From: Schmidtea nova
Taxonomy: Eukaryota
DNA length: 64,000 nt
Assembly: GCA_044892505.1 (NCBI GenBank)
Contig: CM097883.1
Coordinates: 216,380,001-216,444,000 of the forward strand
Reading direction: 5' to 3'
This document shows, one piece after another, positions 21,601 to 40,408 of the stretch. Each line of letters begins with the position of its first letter. Within the stretch, counting starts at the first letter, position 1. The position numbers and the translations under genes were made by a program. The notes beneath the pieces were generated by a model. It was not told where the DNA came from and ran no database searches. It was given only the letters and a program-made list of their open reading frames with translations.

Positions 21601-22212
21601 GTTCTGCTCGCAATGTTCTGCTACTAAATGTTCTGTCACTATGATAAATACATGAAAAGTTATTATACTATTGAGATAATCACACATATTATTCTTAAAT
21701 TATAGTACAAATATATCAAAAATATATGAAATATACATTACTGCTGGGTTCATGGAGGGGTTAGATGAAAAATGCTCTAACAATGACTAGGGATCCCTCA
21801 TCCATGATCATGCATAAAATTGCAATTTTACACTCAAGCGCCCTTGATTATTTCCCTATATAATCAAGTTGGTGATGCGCAGGGTGGTTAAACAATGATG
21901 GGCAGGTGAGCACTATCGCTAGTACTACTCCCCATTTATGTTTACGGGTCCATTGCTGCCGTTAGAAGGACTTATGCTTTCATCATCTGCTTAGGTATTC
22001 CGCAATAATCTTTTTTAGAAAATTTATATTTAACATTGCGTATTCTGCGAGAAGTGTTTAAATCGAAATGCTCGCTTAATCATTTATTTACCCCTGTTAG
22101 GTATGTTGTGAGAGGAGTTTATACTTTTATTCTACATTTATCTAATTATTTGTCAAGTACTGAATCCATTTAAAAGAACAACAACAATTTTAAATTAACA
22201 CGAAAATTTTAT

Positions 22213-22809
22213 TTAAGTTTTAATTAATTCCGTAAAAACTCCCGCCGGAGGAAAAATTTCCGTCAACAATTCTCCTTCGGTCATCTGATGTAGACCATCT
22301 ACTTGACTCTGTAATCGCTGAGCGAATAATTTCCTCTGTCTTCGCCGTTTCTGCCCAATGCGCTTGCGTTTCTGGTGCGCATTTGCCGATGAGGTGATTG
22401 GGTTTGCTGCAGGAGCCGTCTCATTCCGACTTTCGATTAGATCGGCGACATCCGTGCCAATGGAATTTACAGTCTTCTTTTCCGCTGTCCAAGCTTGATA
22501 CGTAACCGGACGGATTTGCTCTCTGAGTTCTTTCTCGATATATGAGGCAGTTACGGAATGGAGGCATTTTCGGAGTTCTATCTTTGTAGCCTCCCATTCC
22601 ATTTGGTAATCGGCTGCAGTCTGCTGGGCGCGTTCGGTTTTACTGATTTGCTCTTTCATCCGGGCCGGAGCAAACCAGCTTTTGCGCAAGTATGCAATCT
22701 GTGCCTTGGCTTTGATCAATTGTGCCTTGAGGAGACCCAATTCCTTGTCCTGGGCTCTCCGGATCCGCCACATCTTTTCCAATTCTCTCTGTATCAAATC
22801 GGTGGTCAT
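22213..22809 (-). CDS. Orphan 198-aa coiled-coil protein with an Arg/Lys-rich C-terminal segment
   Basis: Intact ORF; TTATAG-A-ATG start context; degenerate homolog at 3569-4164. Confidence 0.7.
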   Translation of the reverse strand: MTTDLIQRELEKMWRIRRAQDKELGLLKAQLIKAKAQIAYLRKSWFAPARMKEQISKTERAQQTAADYQMEWEATKIELRKCLHSVTASYIEKELREQIRPVTYQAWTAEKKTVNSIGTDVADLIESRNETAPAANPITSSANAHQKRKRIGQKRRRQRKLFAQRLQSQVDGLHQMTEGELLTEIFPPAGVFTELIKT

Positions 22810-22989
22810 TCTATAATTTATTTAGGATATTCACTTTATGATTATATGAAAAATTAAAATCTGATTATAGGATTATTAGGTTACGAATACGAACCATTAA
22901 AAATACAAAACCAAAACTCAAAACAACAAAATAAAAACACCGCTGAACATTAATATTTGAACACAATTTAAACATTTTACAATCAGTTT

Positions 22990-23469
22990 TTATCTCCGAA
23001 ACAAGCTATGTAATTCGCTGTTAATCGGCCTCCGACGAAGACGAGCCCAAGAGAATGAGGGTTGTCCTTTCTGGCACTCCTTGCCGAACGGTTTTCGTGG
23101 TAGAAATTCGTGTAGGCCTAGTTGACATAGTTCCCGACGAGGGATGTGCCCCCAATAAATTATACGGCTTGTTCGTCCCTCAGTGTTCTTGACCAATACG
23201 ATCAATCGGCCAAACTTATTTGAGTACGGCCTTTGGGAAATCGGCCAGTTCGGTCCTCCTCGATAGAGTATTTGGTCGTTCCCTCCTGTCCATATCGAGA
23301 ACGGGCATTTTCGGCCAAACCCATGTCGCCACTTATACATCTGGCAGTTGAGGGTTCGCAATATTGATGCCGGTAGATCCTTGAGCTGCGAGATCTTTCC
23401 ATTTTGTATATTCCCTTGTTCCACATCCCGTAGTTGAGTTAATTGATTCATAAGTTCGGCTGTCGACAT
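22990..23469 (-). CDS. Orphan 159-aa basic protein
   Basis: Intact higher-GC ORF; AATATAG-ATG start context; 180 nt upstream of the 198-aa ORF on the same strand. No recognisable domain. Confidence 0.55.
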   Translation of the reverse strand: MSTAELMNQLTQLRDVEQGNIQNGKISQLKDLPASILRTLNCQMYKWRHGFGRKCPFSIWTGGNDQILYRGGPNWPISQRPYSNKFGRLIVLVKNTEGRTSRIIYWGHIPRRELCQLGLHEFLPRKPFGKECQKGQPSFSWARLRRRPINSELHSLFRR

Positions 23470-24173
23470 CTATATTACATTTATTGGATATAGAATATAT
23501 GAGTTAACGGAGGGAATTTGTTGATAAATCATTTATACTGCATATAATCACAAAAGTTACTTAAAATTAAGATTAATTTTATTTCTCTCCGCCGTGATCT
23601 ACCACGGTCGGAATAAAGAGTTCATAATTAGTCCTGTGCTATATACAGCATTCAGGAATATAGAATTTAATACCGATTTCCGCGCTATATACAGCGATCG
23701 GACTATAACTTGGGAACCGCGCCATATACGACGATCGGTCTATTTTTAGTAACTAATTTTAATTTTAACTTGGATTTTCCGACGCATTCCAATGCGATCG
23801 GAATTTATCGACATTATAATTTTGTAGGCGAGATGCCGATTCCGAATGAAATCGGACTTTAGACTACGTTGGATTTTCTTATTTCAGCGAAATTATTCAA
23901 ATTTATTTTATTTGTTGCTCACTGTTTTTCCATGCGAGAGGTTCCATTTCGATTCAATTGACTAAAAATTTAAATGATGAGTATGCCCTACCATGGGGTG
24001 TCCCTCCTTATCAATCCGCCCTCCGCATTCTCCCTATTTGGCCCTCGACACTCGTCCATTGTGCAACCCAGAATTAAATAATTAGTAAATGGTCTGTACT
24101 AGACTAAAAATTCAATCAAATTTTCTAAATAAAATTCTATATCTAACTAAATATTAAAAAGGTTGAACCGCCA

Positions 24174-24885
24174 TGTGAGACCGTGAGGCCCCACAACGAC
24201 GACTCGGACTCCCTCGCCGCGTGAGCAGCATAGGAAGTATAGCTATATGCATTAAAATGTCAATATAAAAAAAAAATAAAATAACGTTTACATATAAAAT
24301 TTTAATTGAATAAAAATCATGGGTACATCATATAAGACAAAATAAAGAAATTACTTCCGTACTTGAATGTGTGGTTCCTTGTATGAAATTCGGTTTTTTC
24401 AAAAAATCTCGTTTTGTTCAATGAAATATTACTTAAATCAAAGTTTAGTCTTGATTGTAAGTTAAAAGTAAAACGTCTGTTGTTGTGATTTTTGGATCGG
24501 TATTTATACTGATCCGTCTGGTTGGATTGACCAATCAGGATCAGGCCGTCCTTCAAAGTATTTTTATTATTTTATTCTAACCTAAACATTATTTTGTTTC
24601 CTTTTCCGGTTTCTCGCTGGGTAGTCCTGGTTTTCCAAGTAATTAATTAATTATTTGCACTATTATTTTATTTAATTCTATCTTTTCTTATTTCAGGCCC
24701 CCTTTTGCTGTTGTTTACCGGTTTATTTTCAAAATTTCCTTTTACTGAAAATTTATCAAATATTATTTGTCGTTTTATTGTTATTTTTAATTTGTTTTTC
24801 TTGTTATTTTTATGTTTATTATTTTCTTATTGTTTTGTGTTTTTGCTCTTTTATTGTGTTTTTAGGTGATTTGGCGGGCCCAACA
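24174..24885 (-). repeat. Putative 3' LTR (~712 bp) of the giant retroelement
   Basis: On the minus strand it begins TGTTGGG and ends GGTCTCACA. Contains ATTGG (24531-24535), TATAAATA (24508-24501) and ATTAAA (24306-24301) followed by a T-rich tract. A G-rich PPT-like tract precedes it at 24902-24886. The second LTR is outside the window, so the boundaries are unconfirmed. Confidence 0.45.
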
Positions 24886-25089: not shown

Positions 25090-25659
25090 TTATACAATTT
25101 GCTCGATCGTCTGGCTCGCTTGGGGTTGAGTTCGGGTCCTCTCGTTGATTATTTGTAGCTCGTAGTGGGTTTGGATGTGGTTGAGGTGGCTCCTTATTCG
25201 TCTTTGAGCTCGGTTATCTCGTCTGGAGGTTTGGTTGTAGATTTTCTGCTTTTGTTTTAGGATCTTTATTCTATATGAGGCAATTAGGATTGTGATTGCG
25301 ATGATAGTTGTGCTGATTGCTAGGATTATGATGATTGCTATGATCCATTTTTCTTGATATTCTATTTCAGCTTGGGATAGGCTTTTTATGGGCTCTCTAC
25401 CTTCTTTCAGGATTTTTCGGGTTTCTTTTAATTTCAGTTGTTGGTTACCGAAGATTTGTTGGATTTGATGATCTTGATTGTAGGGGTATTTCTGTCGGAA
25501 TTCGTTGATTTCTTTAATTACTTCTTCGATTAGGCTGTCTACTTTCTGGTAGATTTTGTCGGGTAGAACTCGTAATTGGGTTTCGGTTAGTTGTAGATCT
25601 TCTCTCTGTAGGGTAATGGTTGTTAACCATAGGAGTGTTGCTATTGCGAGCTTTCTCAT
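25090..25659 (-). CDS. Type I membrane protein (~189 aa), last accessory gene of the retroelement
   Basis: Signal-like MRKLAIATLLWLTTITL from ATG 25659 (the ORF-track start at 25692 is GTG); TM WIIAIIIILAISTTIIAITILIASY followed by basic residues. Confidence 0.7.
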   Translation of the reverse strand: MRKLAIATLLWLTTITLQREDLQLTETQLRVLPDKIYQKVDSLIEEVIKEINEFRQKYPYNQDHQIQQIFGNQQLKLKETRKILKEGREPIKSLSQAEIEYQEKWIIAIIIILAISTTIIAITILIASYRIKILKQKQKIYNQTSRRDNRAQRRIRSHLNHIQTHYELQIINERTRTQPQASQTIEQIV

Positions 25660-25734: not shown

Positions 25735-26796
25735 TTATACAAGGGTTTCGTTGGGTTCGTGAAAACCTTCGTCTTGAGGTTCCACCTGATTTATGGGGAG
25801 TGGCATCCATATTACCGTGCTCCTCCACATTTCGACTTCTTCTCGGTATGTGTGGGATATCTGGATCTCTTCATCTAATAAGTATTCCAGATAGTTCGCT
25901 TGTTCTGTTAGGGTTTCAATTTGTTTTTCTAGTTCTGCCAATTTTTTCTCTCTCTCTTCCTTCTCCATCATTTCGGTCACTGCTGCTGTGATACTTGTTT
26001 CTTTTATTGGTGTTGGTTTTTCTGCCAACTTCTTTCTCAGTTCTTCGTTTTCTTTTGTCAAATTTGTTATGTTCTCTTCATAACTCTGCCTCGTTTCTTC
26101 CAGTCTTTCTTTAGTTCTTTTTAATTCTATTTTCTTCTGGGTGATCACTCCTTGATATCCATTTATGTCTCTTTTCATGTTTTCTTCCTTGTGATTCCAC
26201 ATTCCGGTCAGCATACCTTTTAATTGTTCTTGATTGGCTAAATCTTTTCCCATTCTTTGTACTTGATAAGTTAATTCTTTTATTTTCTTGGCTTGTTCTC
26301 TGATAAATTGTTGTCTTTTCTTACTCCATACTTTATTTGACGCTTCTTGACTGATCTTTTGCCCTAATTCCTCTTTTAATTCATCGATCTCTTTAAACAG
26401 TTTCCAATCATCGCTGTACGCTGTTCGTTCTATTATCTCCCTTGCTTCCTTGTAAGAGTCTTTTGCCTCTTTCTTCCAATATCTTGCTTGTTCTGTGATT
26501 GACTGAATCTTATGGTCTGTTTTTATTTGTTGTCTATCCCTATCCTCTCGTCGCTCTTTCATCATCTCTTTGTAGTATTCGTTTTGTTGTCTTAGCAGTT
26601 TGTAGACTTCTTCTATTTTTTCTCGACTTCTTTGATTTGTTTTCTCGGCTTCTCTTAGTGCTTGGGTTTGTCTTTCCAATTCCTCCTGTTTTCGATAATA
26701 GACATGAATCCATATCCCAGTCCGCTCCATGTGATTTCTGATCATTTCGTCTTGATGTACTGTTACTTCTTGTAAGGTTACTTCTATATTTCCCAT
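25735..26796 (-). CDS. 353-aa long coiled-coil accessory protein
   Basis: Intact ORF rich in E/K/Q/R; starts MGNIEV; AATTATAG-AA-ATG context. Confidence 0.75.
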   Translation of the reverse strand: MGNIEVTLQEVTVHQDEMIRNHMERTGIWIHVYYRKQEELERQTQALREAEKTNQRSREKIEEVYKLLRQQNEYYKEMMKERREDRDRQQIKTDHKIQSITEQARYWKKEAKDSYKEAREIIERTAYSDDWKLFKEIDELKEELGQKISQEASNKVWSKKRQQFIREQAKKIKELTYQVQRMGKDLANQEQLKGMLTGMWNHKEENMKRDINGYQGVITQKKIELKRTKERLEETRQSYEENITNLTKENEELRKKLAEKPTPIKETSITAAVTEMMEKEEREKKLAELEKQIETLTEQANYLEYLLDEEIQISHTYREEVEMWRSTVIWMPLPINQVEPQDEGFHEPNETLV

Positions 26797-26909: not shown

Positions 26910-28286
26910 TTACGCCAACCATCCTTTTCTGTCTGTTTTCTCATGCCTCTCCATCTCTATGTATAGCGTGTCTGCATATAGTCGCTCCCATAGGTTTTCT
27001 TTCCTTATAAACATTGGTTCTCCTGCTGCTAGTCCGCATTCTGTTGTTGGTTTTTCGCTCGTACTCGTATGTTTGTCTGTTTCAAAGAACTTTTCTACTG
27101 GTTTTCCCATACTTTTGATTCTTATAATGACTCCTACTTTCAAGGGCCATTCTATTAGGTCATCGTATTCTCCTTTACATAGCGAGAAAAATATTGACAC
27201 GTGTGTTCCTTGTCCTCTTCCGTCTCCATTTGGGTATACTTTCAATCTTATTTTAACCCCGTTTTTCCATAAATAAAATGGTGGGCTTATTACTGCTGTT
27301 TTAGTCATATTTCTGGCTTCTGCTAGTTTGTCTCTGAAATCTGTTATTTTCCATAAGTAAGGTGCGATTGGTAAGTCCCTTCTTTCGTCAATTTCTCGTA
27401 TTAATTGATTATATTGTATTTTCATTCCTTTTCCTAATTCTTCTATGGCTATTATTTTCTTTTCCATTCTTTCGCGAGTTAGTTCAAACTGCTCTCTTGT
27501 TTCTAGTAGTAAACTCATCATTATCTTATGTGATTCTACTTCTTTTTCTAATTTCTGGATTGTCTGTTCCGTTTCTTTTGTCGTTTCGTTTGTCATTTCC
27601 ACATGCGTTAGTGCTGCTTCTTCTAGGTGTTGTTTCATTGATTGCCGCGTCCGCTTTTCTTTGCATCCCTGTTTGTTATATGGACATTCTCTTGGTCTTT
27701 CGGTACATACTTTCCAATGTTCATGTAACTTTACTTCTTCTGTTATTTCGCAATTGTTTGGACAGTTACTTACATATTGTCTGCATACTTTCTCCTCTGT
27801 TATATTCAAGTGTTCCTCTTCGATTTTTCTCCTCGTTTCTCGAGTTTCACAATACTCGCATGCGATTTCTTCTTCTTTACATTCTTCCTTGTGTTGTTCT
27901 CTCTTCTTTAGAGTTATTGTCTGTTGGCATTTCTCGCATTCGGCTCTCTTTTCCTCGCATTTTTCCATATGGTTCTCCAGATTACTTATTTGTCCTTGCC
28001 ATGTACAAGGTGTATTTACGCACTCCGTTGTGGTGCTCATAATTTCTCTTTGGGTTGCTTTGTCCGTTCTGGTTTCGTCCAACACTATTCTTCCTTCCTT
28101 ACATTCTGGGCATGTTGTTATTCCTGTTGCATCTAATTCTTGTATACATTTTGTACATATTCTACATCCACATATCGTTTGTCTGGGTTCTCGTAGTAAA
28201 TTATTACATTTCCCGCAGGTGAGCCTCTTGCTCCATTTTCTGTTTTCTAGTCTCAAAATTTCGATTATTCGTTCTTCTCTGTCCAT
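26910..28286 (-). CDS. Intronless TRAF-family protein (RING, TRAF zinc fingers, coiled coil, MATH); most like the TRAF2/3/5 type
   Basis: RING CGKC...CGCRICTKC...CPEC; zinc fingers such as CTWQGQISNLENHMEKC and HWKVCTERPRECPYNKQGC; MATH YLWKITDF...SPPFY...YPNGDGRGQGTHVSIFF...GEYDDLIEWP. Confidence 0.92.
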   Translation of the reverse strand: MDREERIIEILRLENRKWSKRLTCGKCNNLLREPRQTICGCRICTKCIQELDATGITTCPECKEGRIVLDETRTDKATQREIMSTTTECVNTPCTWQGQISNLENHMEKCEEKRAECEKCQQTITLKKREQHKEECKEEEIACEYCETRETRRKIEEEHLNITEEKVCRQYVSNCPNNCEITEEVKLHEHWKVCTERPRECPYNKQGCKEKRTRQSMKQHLEEAALTHVEMTNETTKETEQTIQKLEKEVESHKIMMSLLLETREQFELTRERMEKKIIAIEELGKGMKIQYNQLIREIDERRDLPIAPYLWKITDFRDKLAEARNMTKTAVISPPFYLWKNGVKIRLKVYPNGDGRGQGTHVSIFFSLCKGEYDDLIEWPLKVGVIIRIKSMGKPVEKFFETDKHTSTSEKPTTECGLAAGEPMFIRKENLWERLYADTLYIEMERHEKTDRKGWLA

Positions 28287-28379
28287 TTTCTACAATAATA
28301 TATACATTCGACTTGTCATTTATTTTTGGTTTTTCTTGTTTTTTATTTTTACATATTTACAATTTTCCGCTTTATTTAT

Positions 28380-28736
28380 CTATGGCTCATTCGTTGAATC
28401 TGGTTCCGCTTCGTTGTTTAGTCTATTTATTACCCAACTCATCCATCCTTCTTCGGATTCTTCTCTTTCTCCTCGTGTTAAATGGTTTATTTCTATTGCT
28501 TGTCTTTGATTGATATTGCTTATATTTTGATTTTCTCTGGTGAGCTCGGTTATCACTCTTTGTTGTTCTTCTATTCTGTGTAATTGTTCGAAACAGTTGT
28601 TATAACTTTCTGATAATAACATTTGTCTTTCCGCTAATTGGTTCTGTAATGAGTTGACTGTTCGTACTAATAAATCACATTGTGCCTTCCATCTCATAGC
28701 CATAGTTATTTCAGTTGTTTCGTCTTGTTCGTTCAT
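28380..28736 (-). CDS. 118-aa coiled-coil accessory protein
   Basis: Intact ORF between pol and TRAF; AATTTAG-AAA-ATG context. Confidence 0.7.
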   Translation of the reverse strand: MNEQDETTEITMAMRWKAQCDLLVRTVNSLQNQLAERQMLLSESYNNCFEQLHRIEEQQRVITELTRENQNISNINQRQAIEINHLTRGEREESEEGWMSWVINRLNNEAEPDSTNEP

Positions 28737-28860: not shown

Positions 28861-31800
28861 CTATACCATCATTATCGTCTTTTCCTCGTATCGTTCTTCA
28901 TCTTCTATTTGTTTCCAGAATTCTTTACCTTTCGTTCTTCTTTGGAGTTCTTGCTGTATCTCTTCTGGTATTTCTATTCTTTGCTTCATAATTTTAATAT
29001 CTGGCCATTGTATGGCTGTCGCTTTGTTTCTCTTTCTGTATCTCCCATATATTATCATGCTTGTCGTCATTATCCCATATGCTATTAATATTCCTATACT
29101 GATTAATCCTATTACTGTTTTTCCACGGTTTGTTGCTTTGATTTTATTCTGATTCGCTTTTATCTCATTTTGGGTTTGAGCCTCTGGCTTCTTCTCCTTC
29201 TGTACTTGATTCTTGACTTTGTTCATTACTTCTTGTGTAGACCAATGGCGATTTAGTAGTTGTTTGACGTTATTTTCTTTTGTTCGGTTTTCCACGTTTC
29301 CTGGTTCGATCTGTTGTTGTAGTTTCTCTGAGATCTGATATAATCCGCATTCTGGTTTTTCTGAACCTTTTCTAGTGAAGGTACATATCGCGTATGTCTT
29401 ATTTACTTCCATTTTCTTTAATTCGACTTTTTCCTTATTCCCTGTTTCTTTACAGTGGGTTAGGTTGCCTTCTTCTCCTTCTGGGTTATGCTTTGTCCAA
29501 CATATTCCTTTCACTGTTTGATCGAGTCCTGTTAATGTCAGAGTTCTTTCTGTTTTGGTTAACTCTTCTTCGTCGAATTTCAGTATTTCTCCTTTTTGAA
29601 ATGTCTTACAATGCTCTATTCCCTCTTGGATTCCTTTCTCCCAGATACATATACTTCCTTCTTCATTCATTTGTATTTCTTGTATTTCGATTTCCTTGTT
29701 TGTTTGTGATTCGTCGCTTGTCTGAACTTGGTATTCCTTCCTTGGTTCGTTGTATGTTCCCCAGCATAGTTTGTTGCTGCTTGTTTTTCTTATTGTTATG
29801 GCCATTTGTTCTATTATTATTCCTCTGTCAAAACGTTTGGACATTGCTATTATTAACGCTATGCATACGCACTCTTGTTGGGGTGATGTTCTTTCTCTCG
29901 TGTTATTGGTGCTTTTCTCCCCTTCTCCTGGTTTATCCGTTGTGTTTCTTATCTGAGTTGCTGGTTGATCTATGGTGTTTTTGATTTCTTTCTTTGTTGG
30001 TTTTACTCTATACCATTCGAGTCTAGGCGTTTCGTATTTTTGACATACGACTGTCTTAGGTAGCCCCGACTTCTTTTCCTTTCCTATTATGCATATCCGA
30101 TGCATGATTCCTCTGTCCATCCCTTCTATTCGTACTATATCCTGGTCGGATTTTCTGATTATACATTTTAGTGGGTTATCTTTCCCAATTGGTTCATCCT
30201 CTCTATTCCAGCATATTTTCTCGACCTCCTGGACATTTACTATTTTTATCCCTGCTTGTAGGTTTGTTGCTTCTTCCCTATTGATTAACGTTAGTATTAT
30301 TGTTAGACCCAACCATTTTGAACTCTGCGGTAGGCTTCTGGTTCGCCTTTCATATTTTTTCTCTTCTCCTTTAATCTCTTTTATTTCCTTGTCTTCGTTG
30401 TTTATTCCTAGTTTTCCGCTTTTTGTTTCTTTCTTATTTGTTTCTTCTCGTGCTTTTTCTTCTAGTATTTCTACTCCATGGCTTGTATTATCTATATTTA
30501 GCCATTGGGTTGTTGATTTTCTTGGGTTTATCTTGCGTATCCATATAGCTGATAACGCGATTATTACTGGTATGGTCGCTGTTAATATTCCTAAGCCAAT
30601 TAGTTCTTTAATTTCTTTATTCTCGTCTGTTTGTATAGATTCGCTTTGGTTGAACATTATTCCGTATTGTCCCTTTAGTTTTCTCATTAATTGTTCTCGT
30701 TCCTCTTGTTTTCTTTTGACTTCTTTGATAACTTCTTCAGGTGTCCATTTTGCTTGAGGATCGGTTATTATTTTTTCTGCGTCCATTTGTTCATTCGTTT
30801 GGCTTAGTTCCTTGAATTCGAGTTTCCTTGCTACTCCTTTTGATGTCGCGTTTGCTGGTGTATAGTAGGTTTCGCATCTTTCTTGTTGGTTTCCTAGTGT
30901 GTTCATTTTTTCTATTGTACATACTTCATACTCGCTATTAAATTGTAGTTTTTCGATCCTGATTTCTTTATTTGTTTTTCTGCACTCTCTTGATTGTCTT
31001 CTTATATGTTTCTGGACTATTATCCAACATATTTCCAATGTTTTATTCTCTATTTTCCATAATGTTAGAGTTGCTGATGTCTTTCTCTCGGGTTTTGTCG
31101 TAACTTCCTGGCTTATTGGTTGTTTATTGCTTTTAAAGGTAGTGGTGTACTTCGGTTTTCCTTTGTTTCGTTGTTTCCTTTTATTTTTCCGTGTTAACGT
31201 TTTGGTTCTTGTTCCGGATGAAGTCGTATGTATTCCGCATTCTAGGTCGTTTATCGTTATCTGATCATTTTTCTTTACCAAACATATTTCGTAGGTTTGT
31301 TTACTTTCTAAACCTTTTATTTGAATCGTCGTTGTTCCTGTGTTTGTTCGACATTGTGGTGTCGTTCTTTTATTTACTTCTTTTTCGTACTTCCTCCAGC
31401 ATACTCCTTTCACATTTGGTTCTATCTCTTTTATTTCTAATGTTATGTTTACTTTCCGCTTGATTTGTTTATTTCTCTTCCTCGTTCTCCTTCGGAACTT
31501 TATTACCTCTCCAGGTTGGAATGTTTTACATTTTGTGGTACCTTTCTTGTTCCTCTCTTTCTCAAGTAGGCATAGTTTGTACATCTTGTCTGCTCTTACT
31601 TCGGATACTTTAATTACTTTGTTTGTTGTTGGCTTTCGACTTTTCCTTATTTCGTTTACGCCGATTTCTTCGTCATTCCTCGCCCAACATTTTATGTTAG
31701 TGTTCTGTGTATCTTCCACTTCTGTTATTGTCATAGTTTCAATTTCTATTCCTTCCTCTAATCGTTTTATTATTATTAGTATGAGTGCTAAGCATAATAC

Positions 31801-34800
31801 TTCCATTTGGTAAGACACTCTTTCGGTTTCGTTTGTGGCAACTCTTGCTTCGGGCCTCTTTATTGTAATTCGTATAGTTGGTGTTGTTTGCTTATCTATT
31901 GCCTGGGGTTTTTTGTTTTCTGTTCCCTGTGTCTCTGTTCTTCCACATTTTCCGAGGATGTAATCTCCTTTGGGTGACTGTTGTATTGTCATGGCTGCTT
32001 TAGGTGTTTGGTATTTTGCACATGCGATTGTGTTGTGTGATCTTGGATGCTTTTGTTTTCTAACGGTGCATATTTTGTACCAGGTATTTAGATCTAGGTC
32101 GTTGATCTCTATGATTTCTTGCTCGTGTTCTGAGATTCTGCAATCCATCGGGCTATTTTGTTCCGTGATTTTGTCCTTTTTCGACCAACATACTCGTTCG
32201 ATTCCCTCTGCGTTTTTTATTTGTATTATTGCCCTTTCTTCACATGTCATTCCCTGACTTGGATTAATTAACGTTATAATCATTGTTAATAATAGTAATT
32301 CTGGTTTGAAGAATGGTTTTATGGTTGATTTATAACCTGTTCTTTGGGTGTCATTTTTATCTCCTTGGTCGTTTTTTCCTTGTTCTCCATCTTCATCTCT
32401 TTGTTTTTCGTCTTCACTTTTCTTTTCTTCCTTGTCTCGTTTCTTGTCTTTTCTCTCGTTTTCCTCTTTATCGGGTGGTTCGTGATCGTTTGAATTTTCT
32501 GAGTTGTTACCGTCGTCACTATCTGTATTGTCATCTCCCCCTGGCTCGTCGAAAATGTCGTCCTCGACATTGATTTCTTCTATCAATTTTGCATATGCTA
32601 ATGTCGTTAGGTTACTTGCCTCAAATTCTTGTGTTTCTACCTGCTCCGGTATTACTTTGTTAGTGGATTTATATTCCAAGATTTCCTTTTTGGCCTTGAT
32701 CCAATTGTTGATGTATGTCTTCATCAATTCTTTCCATTTGCCTGTGTATTTTTCTTCTTTCGGGCTGGTTGTGATTCTTAGATCCTTTCTTTCCATAAAC
32801 ATCTTCAATATCTCTGGCCATTTATACGTTATTAGGGCACTTCTTATACACCAGTTCTGGTTATGTTCTGTAAACTCATTAATCCTGAAAGCTGGTTCGT
32901 TTGTATTCGGGTTGATCCACGTGAGTATTGATTCTGTTAGTTCGACATTGTGCATCATTGTCAATACACTGGGTTTCTTAATTGTTTTGGTTAGGTATTC
33001 TATTTCTTTCTGGTTTGAGACGGTTTTAATGAAACTGACCATTTCCCAATTGTGTGTTAATAATGCTACATCCAATATTGAATTATCTTTATCTGTTTTA
33101 CCTGTAAGTCCTGCACCTGCTTTGTATAGTTCTTCTAATACCTTTGTTTTCGTTTTGGCCCTTGCTGCAAATACCATAAGTGTATCTCCTTTCTCGTCTA
33201 CCCTATTCATATTGCTTCCGCAATTTAGCATTACTCGTGCAATTTCCATTACTTTTCTATCTTTGCCATTTCGTAAAGCTCTATGTATGGGCATTATTCC
33301 GTCCTTTGGTAGTAAAAATGTTACTGGCATCTCCTTTTTTATAGTCGTTATATCGTTGCCATTGTATGTTCCTTTTGCGTATGCGTGTACTTTTTCAACT
33401 AATGCGCCGAGTATTTCCAGTGCATGTTTACTATTCTCGAATTCCGGTAACAATTCTTTTGCTTTTTCTTGTATCGCATCTAGTCTAGCTTGGTATGGTG
33501 CTTCTGCTTTAAAGAGTGGTGTGAGTTTCTTGTTACTTTCTCTTTCTTTTTTCTCTAAAACCTGTTTGCATTTTTCGGGATGGTTTAAGATTTTTACTAA
33601 TTCCTCATATTCGCTTACTATCGTCTGGTATTTCTCGTTAAAATTGTTTATGTCTTTGTATGTTATTAGTTTATCAAGTGGTTTCGCACACCATTTCCTA
33701 ATCTTGTTGAATAAGGCATTCTTTTCTTTATCGAATTGATGTTCTTCTTCATTCTTTGTGATGTTTATGTTTCCTCTATCTAATAAGGTTAGTAATGTCT
33801 TCTGATCACAAGTAAATTTCAAAAGGTATCTTAACAGTGCGTTTTGTCCTTCGCTGTATACTTCGTTTATGTCTAAGACCCATGTATCATCTTCTGGTCG
33901 TTTCCATTTGACTAACTTACGGATCGTGTTGCATTTACCAATTTTGATTGCCTCTTTGATAATGTCTCCTTTAACTAGTTCGTCTATCTCCCAAGTGGAG
34001 TTAGCTATTATGTATTTCAGCATTGGTTGGTGAGAACTCCATATTACGTGATTTAGCACTGTTTTGTCTTCTCTATCTCGTTCTGTCCAACTGAAATGAG
34101 CTTTTATCAATAGATCTATCATTTCTTTATCTGCTTGGTGGATTGCGGCTGTCATTAATGGAGTTTCTTGTTCCCGATTCCCTACGTCCAAGTTTTGGTT
34201 TGTTTCTTTTGCGATTTTTAGGAATTCTTTTGCTCTTTCAATGTTTTTACACTCTATCGCATTATGTAAGGCTGGTTGTCCTCCTACATCTTTCAATAAG
34301 AGTATTTCAGGGATTTTTTCCAATAATTCAGAAATAATTGGTTCGGTTGGTAATCCTTGTGCGTAACGGCTAATTATATGTCTAATATCCCTTGATATGC
34401 CTGCTTCGTCTCTAACATGCCATCTTCCCATTATCTCTCTCGCCTTCAATATGATTTCTTTATTTCTGATTTCTTTTTGCCTTATTTCTGCTTTGTCGTC
34501 TTCAGTTGCATTAGCTCTGAGCATATTTATCCTGGCTGTTTGTGATCTAGTTATTATTCGATTTTCTGGTGTTGTAGTTATCGTTTTAGGCACCTTCTTA
34601 CATCTGCAGGTGTTTACATATATGGGTCGTATTAAGGGTCGATTTATTAGCTTAACTTTGACATTATTGTCCTTTTTGTATATAATTTCATAAGGTCCTC
34701 TTCCAGGTCTTTGGAGTTTCTTAACTGTTCCTGGTATTATTTCGGGAGTTTCTATTATCACCCAATCTCCTGGTTTTAGATCGTTCGCTTTAACATTTTT

Positions 34801-35136
34801 CTTCTGGTCGTGTAAGTCCTTATAACTTTCCTGATAAAATTTAATGTTGAGTTCTGCCGTTTTCCATATTTCCTGCATTCTTTCTTTGAATTTGGTTACG
34901 TAGTCGTCATCTTCCATATATTGCGATAATGGTGGCTGATACTCTAAATCTATGGGCATGTTGCATTCTCTTCCATACATAAGTTGAAATGGGCTTAGTT
35001 TTGTTGCTGCATGTATCGACATTCGGTATGCCATTAAACATAATTTTATGTATTCGTCCCAATCAGTCTGATGTCTGCTGACGTAATTTGATAACATTCT
35101 GATCAATGTACCATTGAATCGCTCCGTTTGTCCATT
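28861..35136 (-). CDS. 3' part of retroelement Pol: integrase C-half, ankyrin repeats and two FN3-like membrane modules
   Basis: NGQTERFNGTLIRML carries the catalytic E; GPY motif RPGRGPYEII; ankyrin-like units at ~34290-33030; repeated W...C...I-x-x-L...Y-x-I-C domains, signal-like segments and two TM helices. The first 23 aa of the ORF-track entry come from the Maverick TIR. Confidence 0.9.
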   Translation of the reverse strand, partial: NGQTERFNGTLIRMLSNYVSRHQTDWDEYIKLCLMAYRMSIHAATKLSPFQLMYGRECNMPIDLEYQPPLSQYMEDDDYVTKFKERMQEIWKTAELNIKFYQESYKDLHDQKKNVKANDLKPGDWVIIETPEIIPGTVKKLQRPGRGPYEIIYKKDNNVKVKLINRPLIRPIYVNTCRCKKVPKTITTTPENRIITRSQTARINMLRANATEDDKAEIRQKEIRNKEIILKAREIMGRWHVRDEAGISRDIRHIISRYAQGLPTEPIISELLEKIPEILLLKDVGGQPALHNAIECKNIERAKEFLKIAKETNQNLDVGNREQETPLMTAAIHQADKEMIDLLIKAHFSWTERDREDKTVLNHVIWSSHQPMLKYIIANSTWEIDELVKGDIIKEAIKIGKCNTIRKLVKWKRPEDDTWVLDINEVYSEGQNALLRYLLKFTCDQKTLLTLLDRGNINITKNEEEHQFDKEKNALFNKIRKWCAKPLDKLITYKDINNFNEKYQTIVSEYEELVKILNHPEKCKQVLEKKERESNKKLTPLFKAEAPYQARLDAIQEKAKELLPEFENSKHALEILGALVEKVHAYAKGTYNGNDITTIKKEMPVTFLLPKDGIMPIHRALRNGKDRKVMEIARVMLNCGSNMNRVDEKGDTLMVFAARAKTKTKVLEELYKAGAGLTGKTDKDNSILDVALLTHNWEMVSFIKTVSNQKEIEYLTKTIKKPSVLTMMHNVELTESILTWINPNTNEPAFRINEFTEHNQNWCIRSALITYKWPEILKMFMERKDLRITTSPKEEKYTGKWKELMKTYINNWIKAKKEILEYKSTNKVIPEQVETQEFEASNLTTLAYAKLIEEINVEDDIFDEPGGDDNTDSDDGNNSENSNDHEPPDKEENERKDKKRDKEEKKSEDEKQRDEDGEQGKNDQGDKNDTQRTGYKSTIKPFFKPELLLLTMIITLINPSQGMTCEERAIIQIKNAEGIERVCWSKKDKITEQNSPMDCRISEHEQEIIEINDLDLNTWYKICTVRKQKHPRSHNTIACAKYQTPKAAMTIQQSPKGDYILGKCGRTETQGTENKKPQAIDKQTTPTIRITIKRPEARVATNETERVSYQMEVLCLALILIIIKRLEEGIEIETMTITEVEDTQNTNIKCWARNDEEIGVNEIRKSRKPTTNKVIKVSEVRADKMYKLCLLEKERNKKGTTKCKTFQPGEVIKFRRRTRKRNKQIKRKVNITLEIKEIEPNVKGVCWRKYEKEVNKRTTPQCRTNTGTTTIQIKGLESKQTYEICLVKKNDQITINDLECGIHTTSSGTRTKTLTRKNKRKQRNKGKPKYTTTFKSNKQPISQEVTTKPERKTSATLTLWKIENKTLEICWIIVQKHIRRQSRECRKTNKEIRIEKLQFNSEYEVCTIEKMNTLGNQQERCETYYTPANATSKGVARKLEFKELSQTNEQMDAEKIITDPQAKWTPEEVIKEVKRKQEEREQLMRKLKGQYGIMFNQSESIQTDENKEIKELIGLGILTATIPVIIALSAIWIRKINPRKSTTQWLNIDNTSHGVEILEEKAREETNKKETKSGKLGINNEDKEIKEIKGEEKKYERRTRSLPQSSKWLGLTIILTLINREEATNLQAGIKIVNVQEVEKICWNREDEPIGKDNPLKCIIRKSDQDIVRIEGMDRGIMHRICIIGKEKKSGLPKTVVCQKYETPRLEWYRVKPTKKEIKNTIDQPATQIRNTTDKPGEGEKSTNNTRERTSPQQECVCIALIIAMSKRFDRGIIIEQMAITIRKTSSNKLCWGTYNEPRKEYQVQTSDESQTNKEIEIQEIQMNEEGSICIWEKGIQEGIEHCKTFQKGEILKFDEEELTKTERTLTLTGLDQTVKGICWTKHNPEGEEGNLTHCKETGNKEKVELKKMEVNKTYAICTFTRKGSEKPECGLYQISEKLQQQIEPGNVENRTKENNVKQLLNRHWSTQEVMNKVKNQVQKEKKPEAQTQNEIKANQNKIKATNRGKTVIGLISIGILIAYGIMTTSMIIYGRYRKRNKATAIQWPDIKIMKQRIEIPEEIQQELQRRTKGKEFWKQIEDEERYEEKTIMMV

Positions 35137-36241
35137 AGTAGACAGAAGTGTGCACCATGAGTCATCGCAGAACAAAGGAAATGACGTCATCGATGAGTCA
35201 TCCATGACCCCCCCGATGACTCATAAATGACGTCATCGATGACTCATAAATGACGTCATCGATGACTCATAAATGACGTCATCGATGACTCATCGATGAC
35301 TCATCGATGACTCATCACATGACTCATCGATGACTCATCGATGACGTCATCGATGACTCATTTCAAATTTGAATTTTATGACGTCATCGATGACTCATTT
35401 CAAATTCAAATTTTAAATTTAAATTCCCAAGGGTCCGATAAGGTCAGACCTTCAAACAAGGGTATCATTCGAAAGGTCTTTTAAAGGTCTATCCAATGGT
35501 CATACCCTCGAGGGTGTATGGAGGATCCTTAACCTTCAAAGGGGTCAAAAACCTTCAACCTTTTACAATCCTTATAATATACATATCAAACAAAAGGTAA
35601 TTGGGAGGTAAGTAAGATGGTCATACCCTCGAAGGTGTATGGAGGATCCTTAACCTTCAAGGGGTCAAAAACCTTCAACCTTTTACAATCCTTATAATAT
35701 ACATATCAAACAAAAGGTAATTGAAGGGTGCACACAATGGTCATACCTTCCAAGGTCTATGGTGGGTGCTCAACCTTCAAAGGGTACAAAACAAGGATAT
35801 AAAGGTAAGTACGGTTTTCTTAATGACTCATCAGTATGACTCATTGGGATGACTCATTAGTATGACTCATCAATATGACTCATCAGTATCACTCATTGGT
35901 ATGACTCATCAGTATGACTCATCAGTATGACTCATCAGTATGACTCATCAGTATGACTCATCAGTATGACTCATCAGTATGACTCATCAATAAATATTAA
36001 CAAAGACAATGCAATCCATGTGCAAAGAAACAAAGACAATGCAATCCATGTGCAACGAAACAAAGACTAATGAAATATAATATTTAATAATAATAATTTT
36101 GTACAGAGATAAATTGTGTGTGTGTGTGTTTAAGACAAATCACAGTACTCATTGAACGCGCGTGAAACGCGCGTTCTTCTTCCTTGTTTTATAAGACAAA
36201 TCACAGTACTCATTGAACGCGCGTGAAACGCGCGTTCTTCT
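35137..36241 (+). repeat. Left TIR (at least 1105 bp) with internal tandem arrays
   Basis: Reverse complement of 51834-52916, differing by one extra 23-bp unit and a 7 versus 8 C run. Contains 11-13 bp TGACTCA/TGACGTCA arrays, ~120-bp direct repeats and two ~58-bp repeats. Confidence 0.95.
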
Positions 36242-36258
36242 TCTTCCCTTGTTGTTTA

Positions 36259-36295
<37 letters not shown>

Positions 36296-36299
36296 TTAT

Positions 36300-36902
36300 T
36301 TATTTATAAATATATTGTTGCGAACGTGTACAAAATTTGGATTCAAAATTATTACTACTAGGAATATTATTCATAGGAACATTATTTACAGGAATTTTAT
36401 TCTTATTAATATTCTCTAACCTTATCGATGTTGCCAATATCAAGATCATTATTAATATGAATAAACTTATGTAATGTAAAACTATCGATGTTTTTTCGCT
36501 TTCAACTGTCTGATTTTGGTATCTGACTTCATATTGTTTTTTAACAATTGTTTGATTCGTACATTTCAAACTTTCAACAATTTTCATCATTATTTTCAAC
36601 ATTATTTTTTCCATTTCTTTATTAATCAAATCATTTTTTGAAGGACATTGTAATTTTATTTTGCTAATTATTTTTTCAATATCATTATTATTAATCAAAT
36701 TATTTTTTGAAGGACATTGATCACATTGTAATTTTATTTGATTGCATTCAGTGTTTGAGTAAACACATATTTCATTATAACTCGCACAAGTACTATCTTC
36801 TCTTCTAAACGGATGGGTTGATTGGCAAGCTTCTAAAGCCTGTTCTCCATCAGTATTTTGAACACACAATAAAAATACAAACATGGTTATAAGCAGTTTC
36901 AT
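36300..36902 (-). CDS. Maverick cargo: signal peptide, Cys-rich ectodomain and TM (~200 aa)
   Basis: MKLLITMFVFLLCVQNTDG from ATG 36902; internal duplication IKLQC(DQC)PSKN(N/D)LIN; TM IVLHYISLFILIMILILATSI. Confidence 0.7.
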   Translation of the reverse strand: MKLLITMFVFLLCVQNTDGEQALEACQSTHPFRREDSTCASYNEICVYSNTECNQIKLQCDQCPSKNNLINNNDIEKIISKIKLQCPSKNDLINKEMEKIMLKIMMKIVESLKCTNQTIVKKQYEVRYQNQTVESEKTSIVLHYISLFILIMILILATSIRLENINKNKIPVNNVPMNNIPSSNNFESKFCTRSQQYIYK

Positions 36903-36967
36903 TTTAAATAAATACAAAATAAAATAAAAAACTAAATTTGTTCATAGTAAAATTTATTAAATAACAA

Positions 36968-37384
36968 TTAGGCGTATCGTGCATTATCAACTCTCCAAAT
37001 TGGAGTTGTCACTTCCTTTTTATCAACCTTGTATCCTTGAATGATTATCGTAACGAACCAGTGTTCTTGATCAATGAAATCGATTGTTTGATAAGCATTA
37101 TGGAAACGAGTCTTCCTGTTATTGATATACATCGTTTCTTTACAAATTAAATTCACATTGATTTTTGAAAATACTCTATTTAGTGCGATAATATCCTCTT
37201 TATCAATAATAATAGATAGACTATCATACAACGACTTTGTTAATTTTACGGGATAAGATAAGCGAAACGGAATTTCTTCTACCAAGAAATAGATTCGGCT
37301 ATCATAATACATCTGGACTGGTTTCACCTCAGTCGGGAATAATCTTTCTTCGCTGACATCATAACCTCGTTTTCGTGAATCCAT
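36968..37384 (-). CDS. Maverick hypothetical protein (~138 aa, probable start MDSRKRG)
   Basis: Intact ORF; the region upstream of it is conserved in element B. Confidence 0.6.
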   Translation of the reverse strand: MDSRKRGYDVSEERLFPTEVKPVQMYYDSRIYFLVEEIPFRLSYPVKLTKSLYDSLSIIIDKEDIIALNRVFSKINVNLICKETMYINNRKTRFHNAYQTIDFIDQEHWFVTIIIQGYKVDKKEVTTPIWRVDNARYA

Positions 37385-37927
37385 TTTTATAAATTGTGAC
37401 AAATTTGTAGAAATGACTTTGTATTTATAGTGAGGACTGGATGCCTTTGTCCAATCACAATCATGCATTTGTATTGCACACGTTATACATGTCTTTGTTG
37501 TAAGTGTGTGTGTGTTGTATATGTTCAAGTAATAAGCTTTTGCATATAAAAACCATAACAAAAGATGTACTGATAGTAAGGGTCTGTAAGTGGATAAAAT
37601 ATTTATTTATATCACAATAATTTATTTTACAATAATTTTTTTTATAAAAAATACTATTTTTAACCTTGGTAAATAAAAAGTTTAATAATTACTCAAAGTT
37701 AAAATAATTAATTAAATTCATAATAATAATTTAAAGTTAAATAAAAAATTATTAATAACTATTACTAAAAACTATTAAAAAACTAAAACTATTTCTTAAA
37801 AAACTGTTACTTAAAAAACTAAAAAACTAATACTAAAAACTAATAAAAACTAAAACTGAAACTAAAAACATTTATTAATATGAAAAACCTAAAAAATCAC
37901 TGTTTACAAATACACACAAATTGATAA

Positions 37928-38476
37928 TCAATGTTCTTCAGGAACTCGGTGACATTCGTCACAATCTGGAGATTCGGGAGACTCCATCGGCTCATCGGAT
38001 TCGATTGGATATGGCCCATCTAGAGTTGGGCAATCAGAATGAGCCGGACAATCTGTAGAATCCATCGATTGATCCGGAGTTGAATTTGGCCATGGCTCCT
38101 TGATATCTTCTTCCTCAATTGTTTCCAGCTGCGAATCGAATTCCTTCAATGCGTTTCTGAGAACCCAAATGTGGTATTTTCGGATCCTCTCGACACAATG
38201 ATCGCATTGATAAGCGCATAATATATGCTCAGCAATGACGGGCAAATCATTGTGGATATTGGCGATATGATCCAAAATTATTTTATTGAGATCGATGCCG
38301 GTCAGCATTTGAATCTTGTACGGCAGAATTTCTGGTGCCGTGTATGCCAAGGTAGGCATTAATTTCGGGAAGATTTCTTCGAGCTTGCCCAGGACCACGT
38401 TCATCAGTTTTCCTGAAAAAGAAATAATATTAAATTTGAAAAAAGATTAATTAAAATCTTTACCATTTTTAATCAT
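37928..38476 (-). CDS. Maverick hypothetical protein with a CxxxCxxC motif; exons 38476-38464 and 38412-37928
   Basis: A 51-nt GT-AG intron joins MIKNG in frame to KLMNVVLG; CAYQCDHC; S/P/D-rich tail. Confidence 0.6.
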
Positions 38477-38670
38477 ATTTTCTTCTAAGCACATTTTTAA
38501 TTCTAAATTATGAGAGAATGTTCTTAGTATATATACGATAGAAACACACATCATGTACGAAATGAACAACTTTCAACCAATAAGAATAAAGTATGCACAA
38601 CATGTCTTTATTCTATCGATACACACTCGACCAATCAGAATCGTGCATTTCCATTGCATGAATATTGCAG

Positions 38671-39138
38671 TCATGAGTCACATGTTAGTATGAAATCAAC
38701 AAAGGCTTTATCTTCTATAATTGATTTTATATCGTTAATAATATTATCAACTATATTAGTATAGTCTTTATTTTTTAATCCTAATATGACTACTTTACCA
38801 CTAGCAAAAATATTGACACACATTGGATTATATTTTGTATATCTTAAAGCTGGAAATAATTCTGGTTCATAAACACATGGAATCAATTTAGATAACTCAT
38901 TTAAATTACAAATAAATCCTAAATCTGCAGTCACAGTTATCGATTGTATTGTTAAATCGTGAGACTTTACTTTTTCATCACTAATAAATTCCTTGCATCC
39001 CATTATTCTATATCTGCCTGTCTTAAAGTATATTATTGGGTATTTTCCACTTCTATCTACAATTTGCTGTGGTTTCCCAGTTGGAAATATCATGTGCGAC
39101 ACATCTGTCTTACCCTTGTAATTAATGTTTCTAATCAT
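38671..39138 (-). CDS. TATA-binding-protein-like protein (155 aa)
   Basis: YEPELFPALRY...NIFASGKVVILGLK matches the TBP second-repeat signature YEPELFPGL...LIFxSGKVVxTGAK. LTIQSITVTADL and IIYFKTGRYRIMG match the inter-repeat strand and the first repeat. Confidence 0.82.
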   Translation of the reverse strand: MIRNINYKGKTDVSHMIFPTGKPQQIVDRSGKYPIIYFKTGRYRIMGCKEFISDEKVKSHDLTIQSITVTADLGFICNLNELSKLIPCVYEPELFPALRYTKYNPMCVNIFASGKVVILGLKNKDYTNIVDNIINDIKSIIEDKAFVDFILTCDS

Positions 39139-39224
39139 TATTAAAAATATTTTAAATCTAACAACAAAGAGATAATTAATATTTTAATCAATATAAACAA
39201 TAATACTAATAAATAATTACAAAC

Positions 39225-39848
39225 ATGGAATTAAGAAATGATGCAGTTTATCAAATTGTCGGTCCGAGCGGGAGCGGAAAAACTTTATTTGTTTGTAAAT
39301 TATTACAATCTAAATTATTCAAATCAAAATTTAATAAAATTTATTGGCATAGGGGTGCTGACGACGAAAGCGGAATGACTCAAGATCAGTTTTGTAAAAT
39401 AAAAATGACAATCATAAAAGGTTTCGATAAAAACTGGTCATCTAGATTAAGAGAAGGGGATGTGATTATTATTGATGACTTGTATCAAGAAGCAAATAAA
39501 GAAAAGGATTTTAATAATTTATTTACGAAAATCGCTAGACACAAAGGTGTTACAGTTATTTTTATTACTCAGAATTTATTTCATCAGGGTGGTAGTCATC
39601 GAACTCGTAATTTAAATGTTCAATATCTTGTTGTTTTTAAAAATCCTCGTGATGCAACAGTTATTGATTTTCTGGCAAGACAAGCTTATCCTTCTAATCG
39701 GAATTTCTTGATTGATGCGTTTCAGGATGCTACAAAATCTCCTCATGGATATCTTTTCTTGGATTTTACGCAACAATGCAGTGATGATTTAAGAGTTAGA
39801 ACTGATATTTTTAACAAGGAAGGAGCCATGGTTTATAAACAAAGTTAA
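39225..39848 (+). CDS. Maverick DNA-packaging ATPase (FtsK-HerA/A32 type)
   Basis: Walker A GPSGSGKT, Walker B IIIDDL, ARHKGVTVIFITQN, VVFKNPRD. Confidence 0.93.
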   Translation: MELRNDAVYQIVGPSGSGKTLFVCKLLQSKLFKSKFNKIYWHRGADDESGMTQDQFCKIKMTIIKGFDKNWSSRLREGDVIIIDDLYQEANKEKDFNNLFTKIARHKGVTVIFITQNLFHQGGSHRTRNLNVQYLVVFKNPRDATVIDFLARQAYPSNRNFLIDAFQDATKSPHGYLFLDFTQQCSDDLRVRTDIFNKEGAMVYKQS

Positions 39849-39868
39849 ATATATTTACAGTAGTAATC

Positions 39869-40405: not shown

Positions 40406-40408
40406 ACA

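What the first reader, a model, noticed from the sequence alone, without database searches (positions are those of the whole stretch)
26910..28286. Full-length intronless TRAF carried inside the retroelement
Seen: complete RING, zinc finger, coiled coil and MATH architecture in one ORF, with the same A-rich codon bias as pol and inside the putative LTR boundary. The RING His is replaced by Cys (CGCRIC). The host gene and the Maverick genes in this window have introns; this gene has none. Inference: an old mRNA-derived capture kept under selection, acting as an E3 or dominant-negative adaptor in TNFR/TLR signalling.
Basis: partly seen in the sequence, partly recalled or inferred. Interest (0 to 1): 0.82.

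Follow-up and report, generated by a model that had tools for sequence, protein, structure and literature searches.

The report
Whole TRAF gene in giant retroelement
A 30-kb retroelement resembling the known planarian 'Burro' elements carries a complete, selectively conserved TRAF signalling gene, likely taken once long ago from the host and predicted to help keep host cells alive, which extends a partly known cargo rather than revealing a new kind of system.

Summary
An intact 458-codon TRAF (RING, five zinc fingers, coiled coil, MATH; minus strand) lies inside a young 29.8-kb Burro-like gypsy element (LTRs 99.8% alike, 4-bp target duplication). It is fixed cargo: all 59 copies checked in two lineages sit in element context, and at least six lineages hold it in the same slot. 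dN/dS is about 0.11.

The His-to-Cys RING and the one-exon coding region are shared with host TRAFs, so neither shows an element-specific change or capture through mRNA.

Trees give one old capture from the planarian TRAF radiation, donor unresolved; sampled host TRAF clades do not descend from the element. Accessory genes carry a conserved splice-acceptor-like motif just before the ATG. The commonest lineage has an IAP gene directly behind its TRAF; the window's lineage lacks it. The most likely role is a pro-survival scaffold with weak ligase activity of its own (untested).

MATH/TRAF cargo in Burro is published, and this scan noted the full-length gene four times before on other DNA. Verdict: new variant of a known kind, interest 0.45.

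The parts
26910..28286 (-). TRAF accessory gene, 458 aa, intact
28101..28217 (-). RING with eight Cys (His replaced by Cys), aa 24-62
27615..28022 (-). five TRAF-type zinc fingers, aa 89-224
27384..27614 (-). coiled coil (TRAF-N), aa 225-301
26952..27359 (-). MATH / TRAF-C domain, aa 310-445
28290..28305 (-). T-rich tract plus TAG ending 4 nt before the TRAF ATG; predicted splice acceptor
28380..28736 (-). small accessory ORF (118 aa) with its own acceptor-like motif; a homologue precedes the TRAF in every lineage examined
25735..26796 (-). coiled-coil accessory ORF (353 aa) with acceptor-like motif
25090..25659 (-). last accessory ORF (189 aa) with a hydrophobic, membrane-like stretch
21742..24885 (-). 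3' LTR (3144 bp, TG...CA on the element strand); the 5' LTR lies beyond the window at window-equivalent 66198-69341
28861..35136 (-). tail of the polyprotein: integrase end, ankyrin repeats, repeated FN3-like units (weak) and hydrophobic stretches
35137..52916 (.). Maverick/Polinton inserted in the integrase region; 1.1-kb inverted ends, TCCATT duplication; not part of the retroelement
52917..53951 (-). RNase H end and integrase (zinc finger and core)
53936..56002 (-). protease, reverse transcriptase, RNase H (separate frame in this copy)
55885..63702 (-). gag with CCHC knuckles, unassigned region, mononegavirus-type fusion glycoprotein (env) in one frame

Best explanation
The gene is a complete TRAF that travels as a fixed, selectively conserved accessory gene of a Burro-like giant gypsy retroelement; it was likely captured once, long ago, from the planarian host's TRAF family, is predicted to be made from a spliced sub-genomic RNA, and likely works as a trimeric scaffold that would tilt signalling toward survival of the cell that replicates the element. 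Shown: architecture, position, copy number, linkage, purifying selection, one element clade within the planarian Cys-RING TRAFs. Inferred: splicing to the acceptor before the ATG (cis from the 5' leader, or spliced-leader trans-splicing); trimer formation through coiled coil and MATH; recruitment of an IAP or a host TRAF that supplies most of the ligase activity, as in the TRAF2-cIAP and TRAF5-TRAF6 pairs. Odds by step: cargo 0.98, selection 0.95, single old capture from host 0.85, spliced expression 0.7, pro-survival scaffold role 0.5.
For: Cargo: 40 of 40 scored DNA hits are full-length at 98-100% on three chromosomes. Integrase lies within 10 kb in 34 of 39 lineage-A and 17 of 20 lineage-B copies; the other 8 keep the polyprotein tail and small ORF, and 7 of them show internal deletions. 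13 of 13 further loci show the same slot. Selection: pairwise dN/dS 0.15-0.18 against lineages E, D, B; codon-model omega 0.11 over 13 sequences and 428 codons, lnL -7737 against -8146 for the best of three omega=1 fits; 26 zinc ligands unchanged in 36 of 36 full-length copies. Capture: element clade 100/99 and 96/94 inside a planarian clade 99/98 and 100/100. Splicing: strict acceptor test passed before the TRAF ATG in 7 of 8 lineages, against 2 of 373 internal ATGs; YAG within 4 nt of the ATG in 39 of 39 A and 17 of 18 B copies. Scaffold: positions matching TRAF6 I72/L74 are K/N, and an I72D/L74R mutant loses Ubc13 binding (PMC5702613, passages); the linker Arg of the RING dimer is kept. Lineage C has a BIR-RING IAP gene directly behind the TRAF in 12 of 12 loci picked by their BIR hit. 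Burro1's IAP protects stem cells (second-hand, PMC13465017).
Against: No expression, binding or activity was shown. The window's lineage has no IAP gene (113-bp spacer), so a partner would have to come in trans. All eight RING ligands are conserved and RING dN/dS is 0.25-0.33 on only 40 codons. Loss of I72/L74 is also seen in ordinary TRAF2/3/5 and in two Dendrocoelum TRAFs, so it says little on its own; lineages C, J and D keep a hydrophobic residue there. The acceptor test was designed after seeing lineage A, lineages are related, and the last ORF fails it in 4 of 4. The donor clade is unresolved (AU p 0.47) and element rows have biased letter make-up. The only virus-encoded TRAF I found in print promotes apoptosis (PMC3352826, title and passages). 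Copies for the within-lineage counts were top hits, biased toward intact ones.
Confidence: 0.55

Rival explanations
1. The element TRAF is an autonomous E3 ligase that ubiquitinates host or element targets.
For: Eight RING ligands are invariant; the Cys-RING is the normal host form; the linker Arg is kept; RING dN/dS is below 1.
Against: K/N at the TRAF6 I72/L74 positions, where 6 of 6 host TRAFs tabulated keep Ile or Leu at the first; TRAF5 alone has diminished activity and TRAF2 appears not to bind E2 (PMC5702613).
Confidence: 0.2
2. It is a dominant-negative decoy that joins host TRAF trimers or occupies receptor tails and damps immune or death signalling.
For: The MATH groove keeps the basic-x-Tyr...Gly-Asp-Gly part, while the serine loop and the Ser of the ASG motif differ and vary among lineages; the E2 face is altered in lineages A, B, E.
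Against: A decoy would not need a RING and five zinc fingers under purifying selection. The His-to-Cys change that prompted the idea is a host trait. Host TRAFs also vary in that loop.
Confidence: 0.17
3. The direction was reversed: host Cys-RING one-exon TRAFs descend from element copies.
For: The host genes are one-exon, and the three planarian-type clades form an unresolved fork.
Against: No host gene nests in the element clade; both host clades have Dendrocoelum members; host genes lack the A bias (30-40% against 56-69% at four-fold sites); TRAFs with a Cys-RING also occur in echinoderms.
Confidence: 0.07
4. The gene is neutral baggage, or a single host gene caught by chance inside this element.
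For: Its 3' position next to the LTR would keep it in deleted copies without any selection.
Against: Omega 0.11; 1,774 motif matches against 0 in the control; variants fall 119/52/35 on codon positions 3/1/2.
Confidence: 0.01

Closest known systems
Burro1-4 / GYPSM1 giant Ty3/gypsy elements of planarians (as described in PMC6431247, section 7 read whole; Jurka 2007 and Grohme 2018 not seen)
   Same: About 30 kb with long LTRs; gag, then a mononegavirus-type env in frame, then PR-RT-RH-IN; ankyrin repeats; TRAF-C/MATH cargo; accessory ORFs.
   Different: There MATH lies inside the polyprotein (S. mediterranea) or in an upstream accessory ORF (D. tigrina), and no RING or zinc fingers are described for it. 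Here a complete TRAF is a separate gene downstream of the polyprotein. The window's lineage has no BIR; lineage C has one directly behind the TRAF.
Burro1 B-IAP (Lee et al. 2026; not held, seen only through passages of PMC13465017)
   Same: Captured cell-death regulator carried by a Burro element; lineage C carries a BIR-RING gene.
   Different: That is an IAP with shown function; the TRAF here has no functional data.
Planarian host TRAFs (Smed-TRAF-2A/B type; Dendrocoelum TRAF-2, -4, -5)
   Same: Same architecture, Cys-RING, one-exon RING-to-MATH region in several genes.
   Different: About 28-31% identity; no A bias; low copy number; the element clade is a separate third branch.
ISKNV ORF111L viral TRAF (PMC3352826, title and passages)
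   Same: TRAF with RING, coiled coil and MATH encoded by a selfish genome.
   Different: 296 aa, in a fish DNA virus, pro-apoptotic through TRADD; relatedness not tested, an independent capture is assumed.
Vertebrate TRAF2/3/5
   Same: RING, five zinc fingers, coiled coil, MATH; best PDB matches are TRAF3, TRAF5, TRAF2.
   Different: His ligand replaced by Cys; receptor-binding loop diverged; not orthologous in the trees.

Membership tests
Burro-like giant gypsy elements | About 30 kb, LTR-bounded | tested here: met
   29,814 bp without the nested Maverick; 3144-bp LTRs
Burro-like giant gypsy elements | Gypsy order PR-RT-RH-IN | tested here: met
Burro-like giant gypsy elements | Mononegavirus-type env in frame between gag and pol | tested here: met
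   Monjiviricetes_fusion E 6e-71 in the gag frame; one frame through pol in 2 of 5 lineage-B copies
Burro-like giant gypsy elements | Ankyrin repeats | tested here: met
Burro-like giant gypsy elements | MATH_TRAF_C cargo | tested here: met
   Present, but as a full TRAF downstream of the polyprotein
Burro1-4 proper | BIR domain | tested here: not met
   None in the window's ORFs; present in lineage C. Filed as Burro-like, not as Burro1
Burro1-4 proper | BCL2-like domain before env | tested here: inconclusive
   No Pfam or PDB sequence hit; a low-confidence model (pLDDT 48) gave BAK at E 0.24 among globins
Burro1-4 proper | Ubiquitin-like and dUTPase-like domains | tested here: inconclusive
   No Pfam hit in the pieces scanned; the paper used HHpred
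Burro1-4 proper | Sequence identity or RT phylogeny with GYPSM1/Burro1 | not testable with these tools
   No reference sequence was obtained
TRAF family | Coiled coil plus MATH | tested here: met
TRAF family | N-terminal RING and zinc fingers | tested here: met
Canonical C3HC4 TRAF RING | His as fourth zinc ligand | tested here: not met
   Cys here and in host planarian TRAFs
TRAF family | Trimer formation, receptor-tail binding, ubiquitin-ligase activity | not tested
   No complex prediction was obtained; needs bench work
Retrocopy (mRNA-derived capture) | Loss of introns present in the donor | tested here: inconclusive
   The nearest host clades have RING to MATH in one exon, so intron loss cannot be scored

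The most novel reading that the evidence does not exclude
Burro-like elements carry an operon-like survival module, a TRAF followed by an IAP and membrane proteins, each behind its own splice acceptor and perhaps resolved by the flatworm's spliced-leader system. The element TRAF recruits the element IAP as a private TRAF2-cIAP-type complex, and well over a thousand element-borne TRAF genes make up a large share of TRAF dosage, and of the 'TRAF expansion' counted in planarian transcriptomes.
Probability: 0.2. Interest if true: 0.75.

Novelty: new variant of a known kind. Interest (0 to 1): 0.45.

Why it matters
Burro elements were known to carry a MATH domain, and one of their captured genes (an IAP) is reported to protect planarian stem cells. 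A complete TRAF held under purifying selection across lineages only 37-78% alike, next to an IAP in the commonest lineage, suggests these elements carry a working piece of the death/survival pathway, not loose domains. It gives a direct test of the 'tinkerer' idea and warns that transcriptome counts of planarian TRAFs may include element genes. It also corrects two tempting readings: the Cys-RING and the lack of introns are host traits.

Tried and rejected
Expression: no RNA holder listed; four runs of unknown kind gave only short contigs and no informative joint. Neither bears on expression. NF-kB and TNF-receptor families: no match in G000, but the controls were silent too, so absence is not shown. 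Metagenome scan with P0097, the unnamed sister of the element clade: no locus, so whether it is element-borne stays open. Homologue search for the lineage-C IAP: nothing at E 1e-6. BCL2-like region: inconclusive. Splice donors: one GTAAGT in the 6.3-kb leader, about chance level by my estimate. A-versus-C dN/dS (0.38) and the coiled-coil values are near saturation and not relied on. The first 53-row tree finished only as a quick tree; smaller careful trees followed (26 and 22 rows, long-branch and unnamed rows dropped). Rejected: His-to-Cys as an element change; intron loss as proof of mRNA capture; the element as source of the sampled host TRAF cluster (11 of 12 cluster rows form their own clade at 100/99 and the twelfth joins another host gene). 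Not held: Lee 2026 and Grohme 2018; their figures and supplements may already show the full TRAF.

Full report
OBSERVATION. The ORF runs from the ATG at 28286 to the stop at 26910 on the minus strand, 458 aa, unbroken. Pfam gives MATH_2 (E 1e-21) and zf-TRAF (E 3e-7). The RING scores under the curated cut-offs, but the N-terminal 149 aa match TRAF6, TRAF5 and TRAF2 RING-zinc-finger chains (E 1e-13 to 1e-11). An AlphaFold model on an 11-row alignment (mean pLDDT 79.5, pTM 0.37) shows a 77-residue helix before the MATH domain and matches TRAF1/2/3/5 structures. The Cys/His spacing gives five zinc fingers. A at four-fold sites is 69%, like RT (65%) and unlike the host exons (21-32%).

THE ELEMENT. 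The gene lies between two 3144-bp LTRs, 21742-24885 and window-equivalent 66198-69341, with 5 mismatches and TTAC on both flanks: a young insertion. A 17.8-kb Maverick with a TCCATT duplication sits in its integrase region; without it the element is 29.8 kb. Upstream lie gag and a mononegavirus-type fusion protein in one frame, then PR-RT-RH-IN and ankyrin repeats. This copy has frame changes between env and protease and near RNase H, so it cannot encode the whole polyprotein; its TRAF is intact. The layout matches the Burro elements of planarians in PMC6431247 (section 7 read whole). The host is called a planarian on protein evidence: a host TRAF in G000 pairs closely with Dugesia japonica TRAF-2A.

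CARGO, NOT A HOST GENE. A DNA search scored 40 of 586 candidates; all 40 are full-length at 98-100%. A RING motif pattern has 1,774 matches against 0 for the reversed control, host genes and broken copies included; a tighter pattern, mostly this lineage, has 165. Of 39 lineage-A copies, 34 have integrase within 10 kb and 36 have the 458-aa frame. Of 20 lineage-B copies, 17 have integrase and 18 a full frame. The 8 without integrase keep the polyprotein tail and the small upstream ORF, and 7 of them show internal deletions. These were top hits, biased toward intact copies. Thirteen loci picked by motif variant all show the same slot. Lineages (my labels) E, D, B, J and C are 78, 70, 52, 43 and 37% identical to the window's TRAF.

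SELECTION. Pairwise dN/dS is 0.15 (A-E, CI 0.11-0.21), 0.16 (A-D) and 0.18 (A-B), against 0.02 for integrase and RT and about 0.1 for the other accessory genes; A-C (0.38) is near saturation. Within lineages it is 0.22 (36 A copies), 0.16 (16 B copies against a reference) and 0.15 (9 C copies). A codon model on 13 sequences and 428 codons gives omega 0.11, lnL -7737 against -8146 for the best of three fits with omega fixed at 1. Twenty-six zinc ligands are unchanged in 36 of 36 full-length A copies; His132 was missed by an index slip but is invariant in the 11-row alignment.

TWO ARGUMENTS THAT FAIL. His-to-Cys: among 30 host TRAF loci, all 16 RING motifs found have Cys there (two are duplicates on unplaced contigs). 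So do Dendrocoelum TRAF-2, -4 and -5 and three echinoderm TRAF3-like proteins; 15 of 105 RING-bearing fetched proteins have Cys. No introns: seven host TRAFs have RING to MATH in one frame, with A at four-fold sites of 30-40% and no element protein within 1.5 kb. Capture through RNA stays plausible for a retroelement, but intron loss cannot show it.

ORIGIN. In careful trees the element TRAFs form one clade (100/99 with LG+G4, 26 rows; 96/94 with a mixture model, 22 rows) inside a planarian-type clade (99/98; 100/100). The two host clades each include Dendrocoelum genes. The fork among the three is open (56/7 for one pairing; AU p 0.47 for the other). An unnamed protein, P0097, is sister to the element clade on a long branch. 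In a MATH-only tree 11 of 12 rows, mostly from a large host cluster on C2, form a separate clade (100/99). So: one old capture, donor unresolved, and no sign that the sampled host genes came from the element. Element rows have a biased letter make-up, which weakens placement.

EXPRESSION ROUTE (inferred). The TRAF, small and coiled-coil ORFs are preceded by a T-rich tract and YAG a few bases before the ATG. A strict test passes for TRAF in 7 of 8 lineages (for C at its second ATG) against 2 of 373 internal ATGs; gag fails in 3 of 3 and the last ORF in 4 of 4. The motif holds in 39 of 39 A and 17 of 18 B copies. The test was built after seeing lineage A. It fits sub-genomic splicing, or spliced-leader resolution of an operon, which flatworms use (PMC8629364, passages). 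No RNA evidence was available.

MECHANISM (inferred). The positions matching TRAF6 I72/L74 are K/N; mutating these in TRAF6 abolishes Ubc13 binding, and TRAF5 can complete a heterodimer despite weak activity alone (PMC5702613, passages). The linker Arg is kept. Ordinary TRAF2/3/5 also lack I72/L74, and lineages C, J and D keep a hydrophobic residue, so this is a lean, not proof. In MATH the basic-x-Tyr...Gly-Asp-Gly part is kept in all six lineages, while the serine loop varies; the binding roles of these residues are recalled from TRAF2 work, not from a call. In lineage C, the commonest motif variant among the 100 matches listed, a 389-aa BIR-RING IAP gene follows the TRAF. Sixteen of 17 listed BIR hits in the first 61 Mb of C1 pair with a listed motif (my comparison), and 12 of 12 loci fetched by their BIR hit show the pair, 9 with a full TRAF frame. 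Lineages A, B, D, E and H have only 89-118 bp there. C branches first, so loss of the IAP in the others or gain in C are both possible. I favour a pro-survival scaffold that borrows ligase activity (0.55), over an autonomous E3 (0.2) or a decoy (0.17). Binding was not tested.

COMPARISON WITH WHAT IS KNOWN. PMC6431247 reports MATH_TRAF_C, BIR, BCL2-like and ankyrin motifs in Burro, and a MATH-bearing upstream accessory ORF in D. tigrina. Burro1's IAP protects stem cells (second-hand, PMC13465017 passages). Planarian TRAF expansion and TRAF survival phenotypes are described without a link to elements in the passages I saw (PMC6109357, PMC7586133, PMC8807557, PMC7958881); PMC7586133 has no occurrence of 'retro' or 'transpos' in its main text. 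Burro1 is piRNA-silenced and expressed on piwi loss (PMC8532177, passages). PMC11410931 (passages) has no occurrence of TRAF. A viral TRAF exists in a fish iridovirus (PMC3352826, listing and passages). Searches showed no paper on a full RING-zinc-finger TRAF as a separate Burro gene, but Jurka 2007, Grohme 2018 and Lee 2026 were not seen and may show it. The scan's own notes list this gene four times, twice in this genome; they agree and are not independent support. One of them suggests the element may explain part of the host TRAF expansion; my trees do not support that for the sampled host genes.

VERDICT. Real element cargo under purifying selection; Burro-like, with BIR absent from this lineage; new variant of a known kind; interest 0.45.

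Noticed in passing
window 20198-21741 and L031 (window-equivalent about 69346-74836): The retroelement itself sits inside another Maverick-like element: the left flank starts with the same terminal motif and matches inverted sequence beyond the 5' LTR. Nesting is Maverick, Burro-like, Maverick.
   Followed up: partly
L200-L211 (G000 C1, C2): Lineage C carries a 389-aa BIR-RING IAP gene directly behind the TRAF, with its own acceptor-like motif; dN/dS among 9 copies 0.26.
   Followed up: yes
L142-L145, L148: 3 of 3 sampled lineage-C copies and one lineage-D copy go from protease straight to the ankyrin region without RT or integrase: possibly an abundant non-autonomous form that keeps the cargo.
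   Followed up: no
window 26952-27359 against L150: Synonymous divergence between lineages A and E is much lower in MATH (dS 0.34) than in RING and zinc fingers (0.9-1.1), hinting at recombination between lineages.
   Followed up: no
window 28861-32400: The polyprotein ends in repeated FN3-like units (weak Pfam hits only) with hydrophobic stretches, like a receptor-type membrane protein; the number of units differs among lineages.
   Followed up: no
window 22213-22809 and 22990-23469 (-): Two ORFs inside the LTR; homologues of the first (29-42% identity) occur in lineages B, D, E and H, of the second (29%) in E and H.
   Followed up: no
window 38671-39183 (-): The Maverick carries a TBP-like domain gene (Pfam TBP E 9e-15).
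   Followed up: no
window 20773-21288 (-): RING (zf-C3HC4_3) ORF in the outer Maverick-like element.
   Followed up: no
G000:C2 about 405-455 Mb; G000:C3 43.80-43.90 Mb: A large host TRAF cluster with tandem arrays and split frames in the coiled coil, and a separate cluster of three one-exon TRAFs related to Dendrocoelum TRAF-2/-5.
   Followed up: partly
window 10293-16721 (-): Host gene of the DDB1/RSE1/CPSF1 family in at least two large frames.
   Followed up: no
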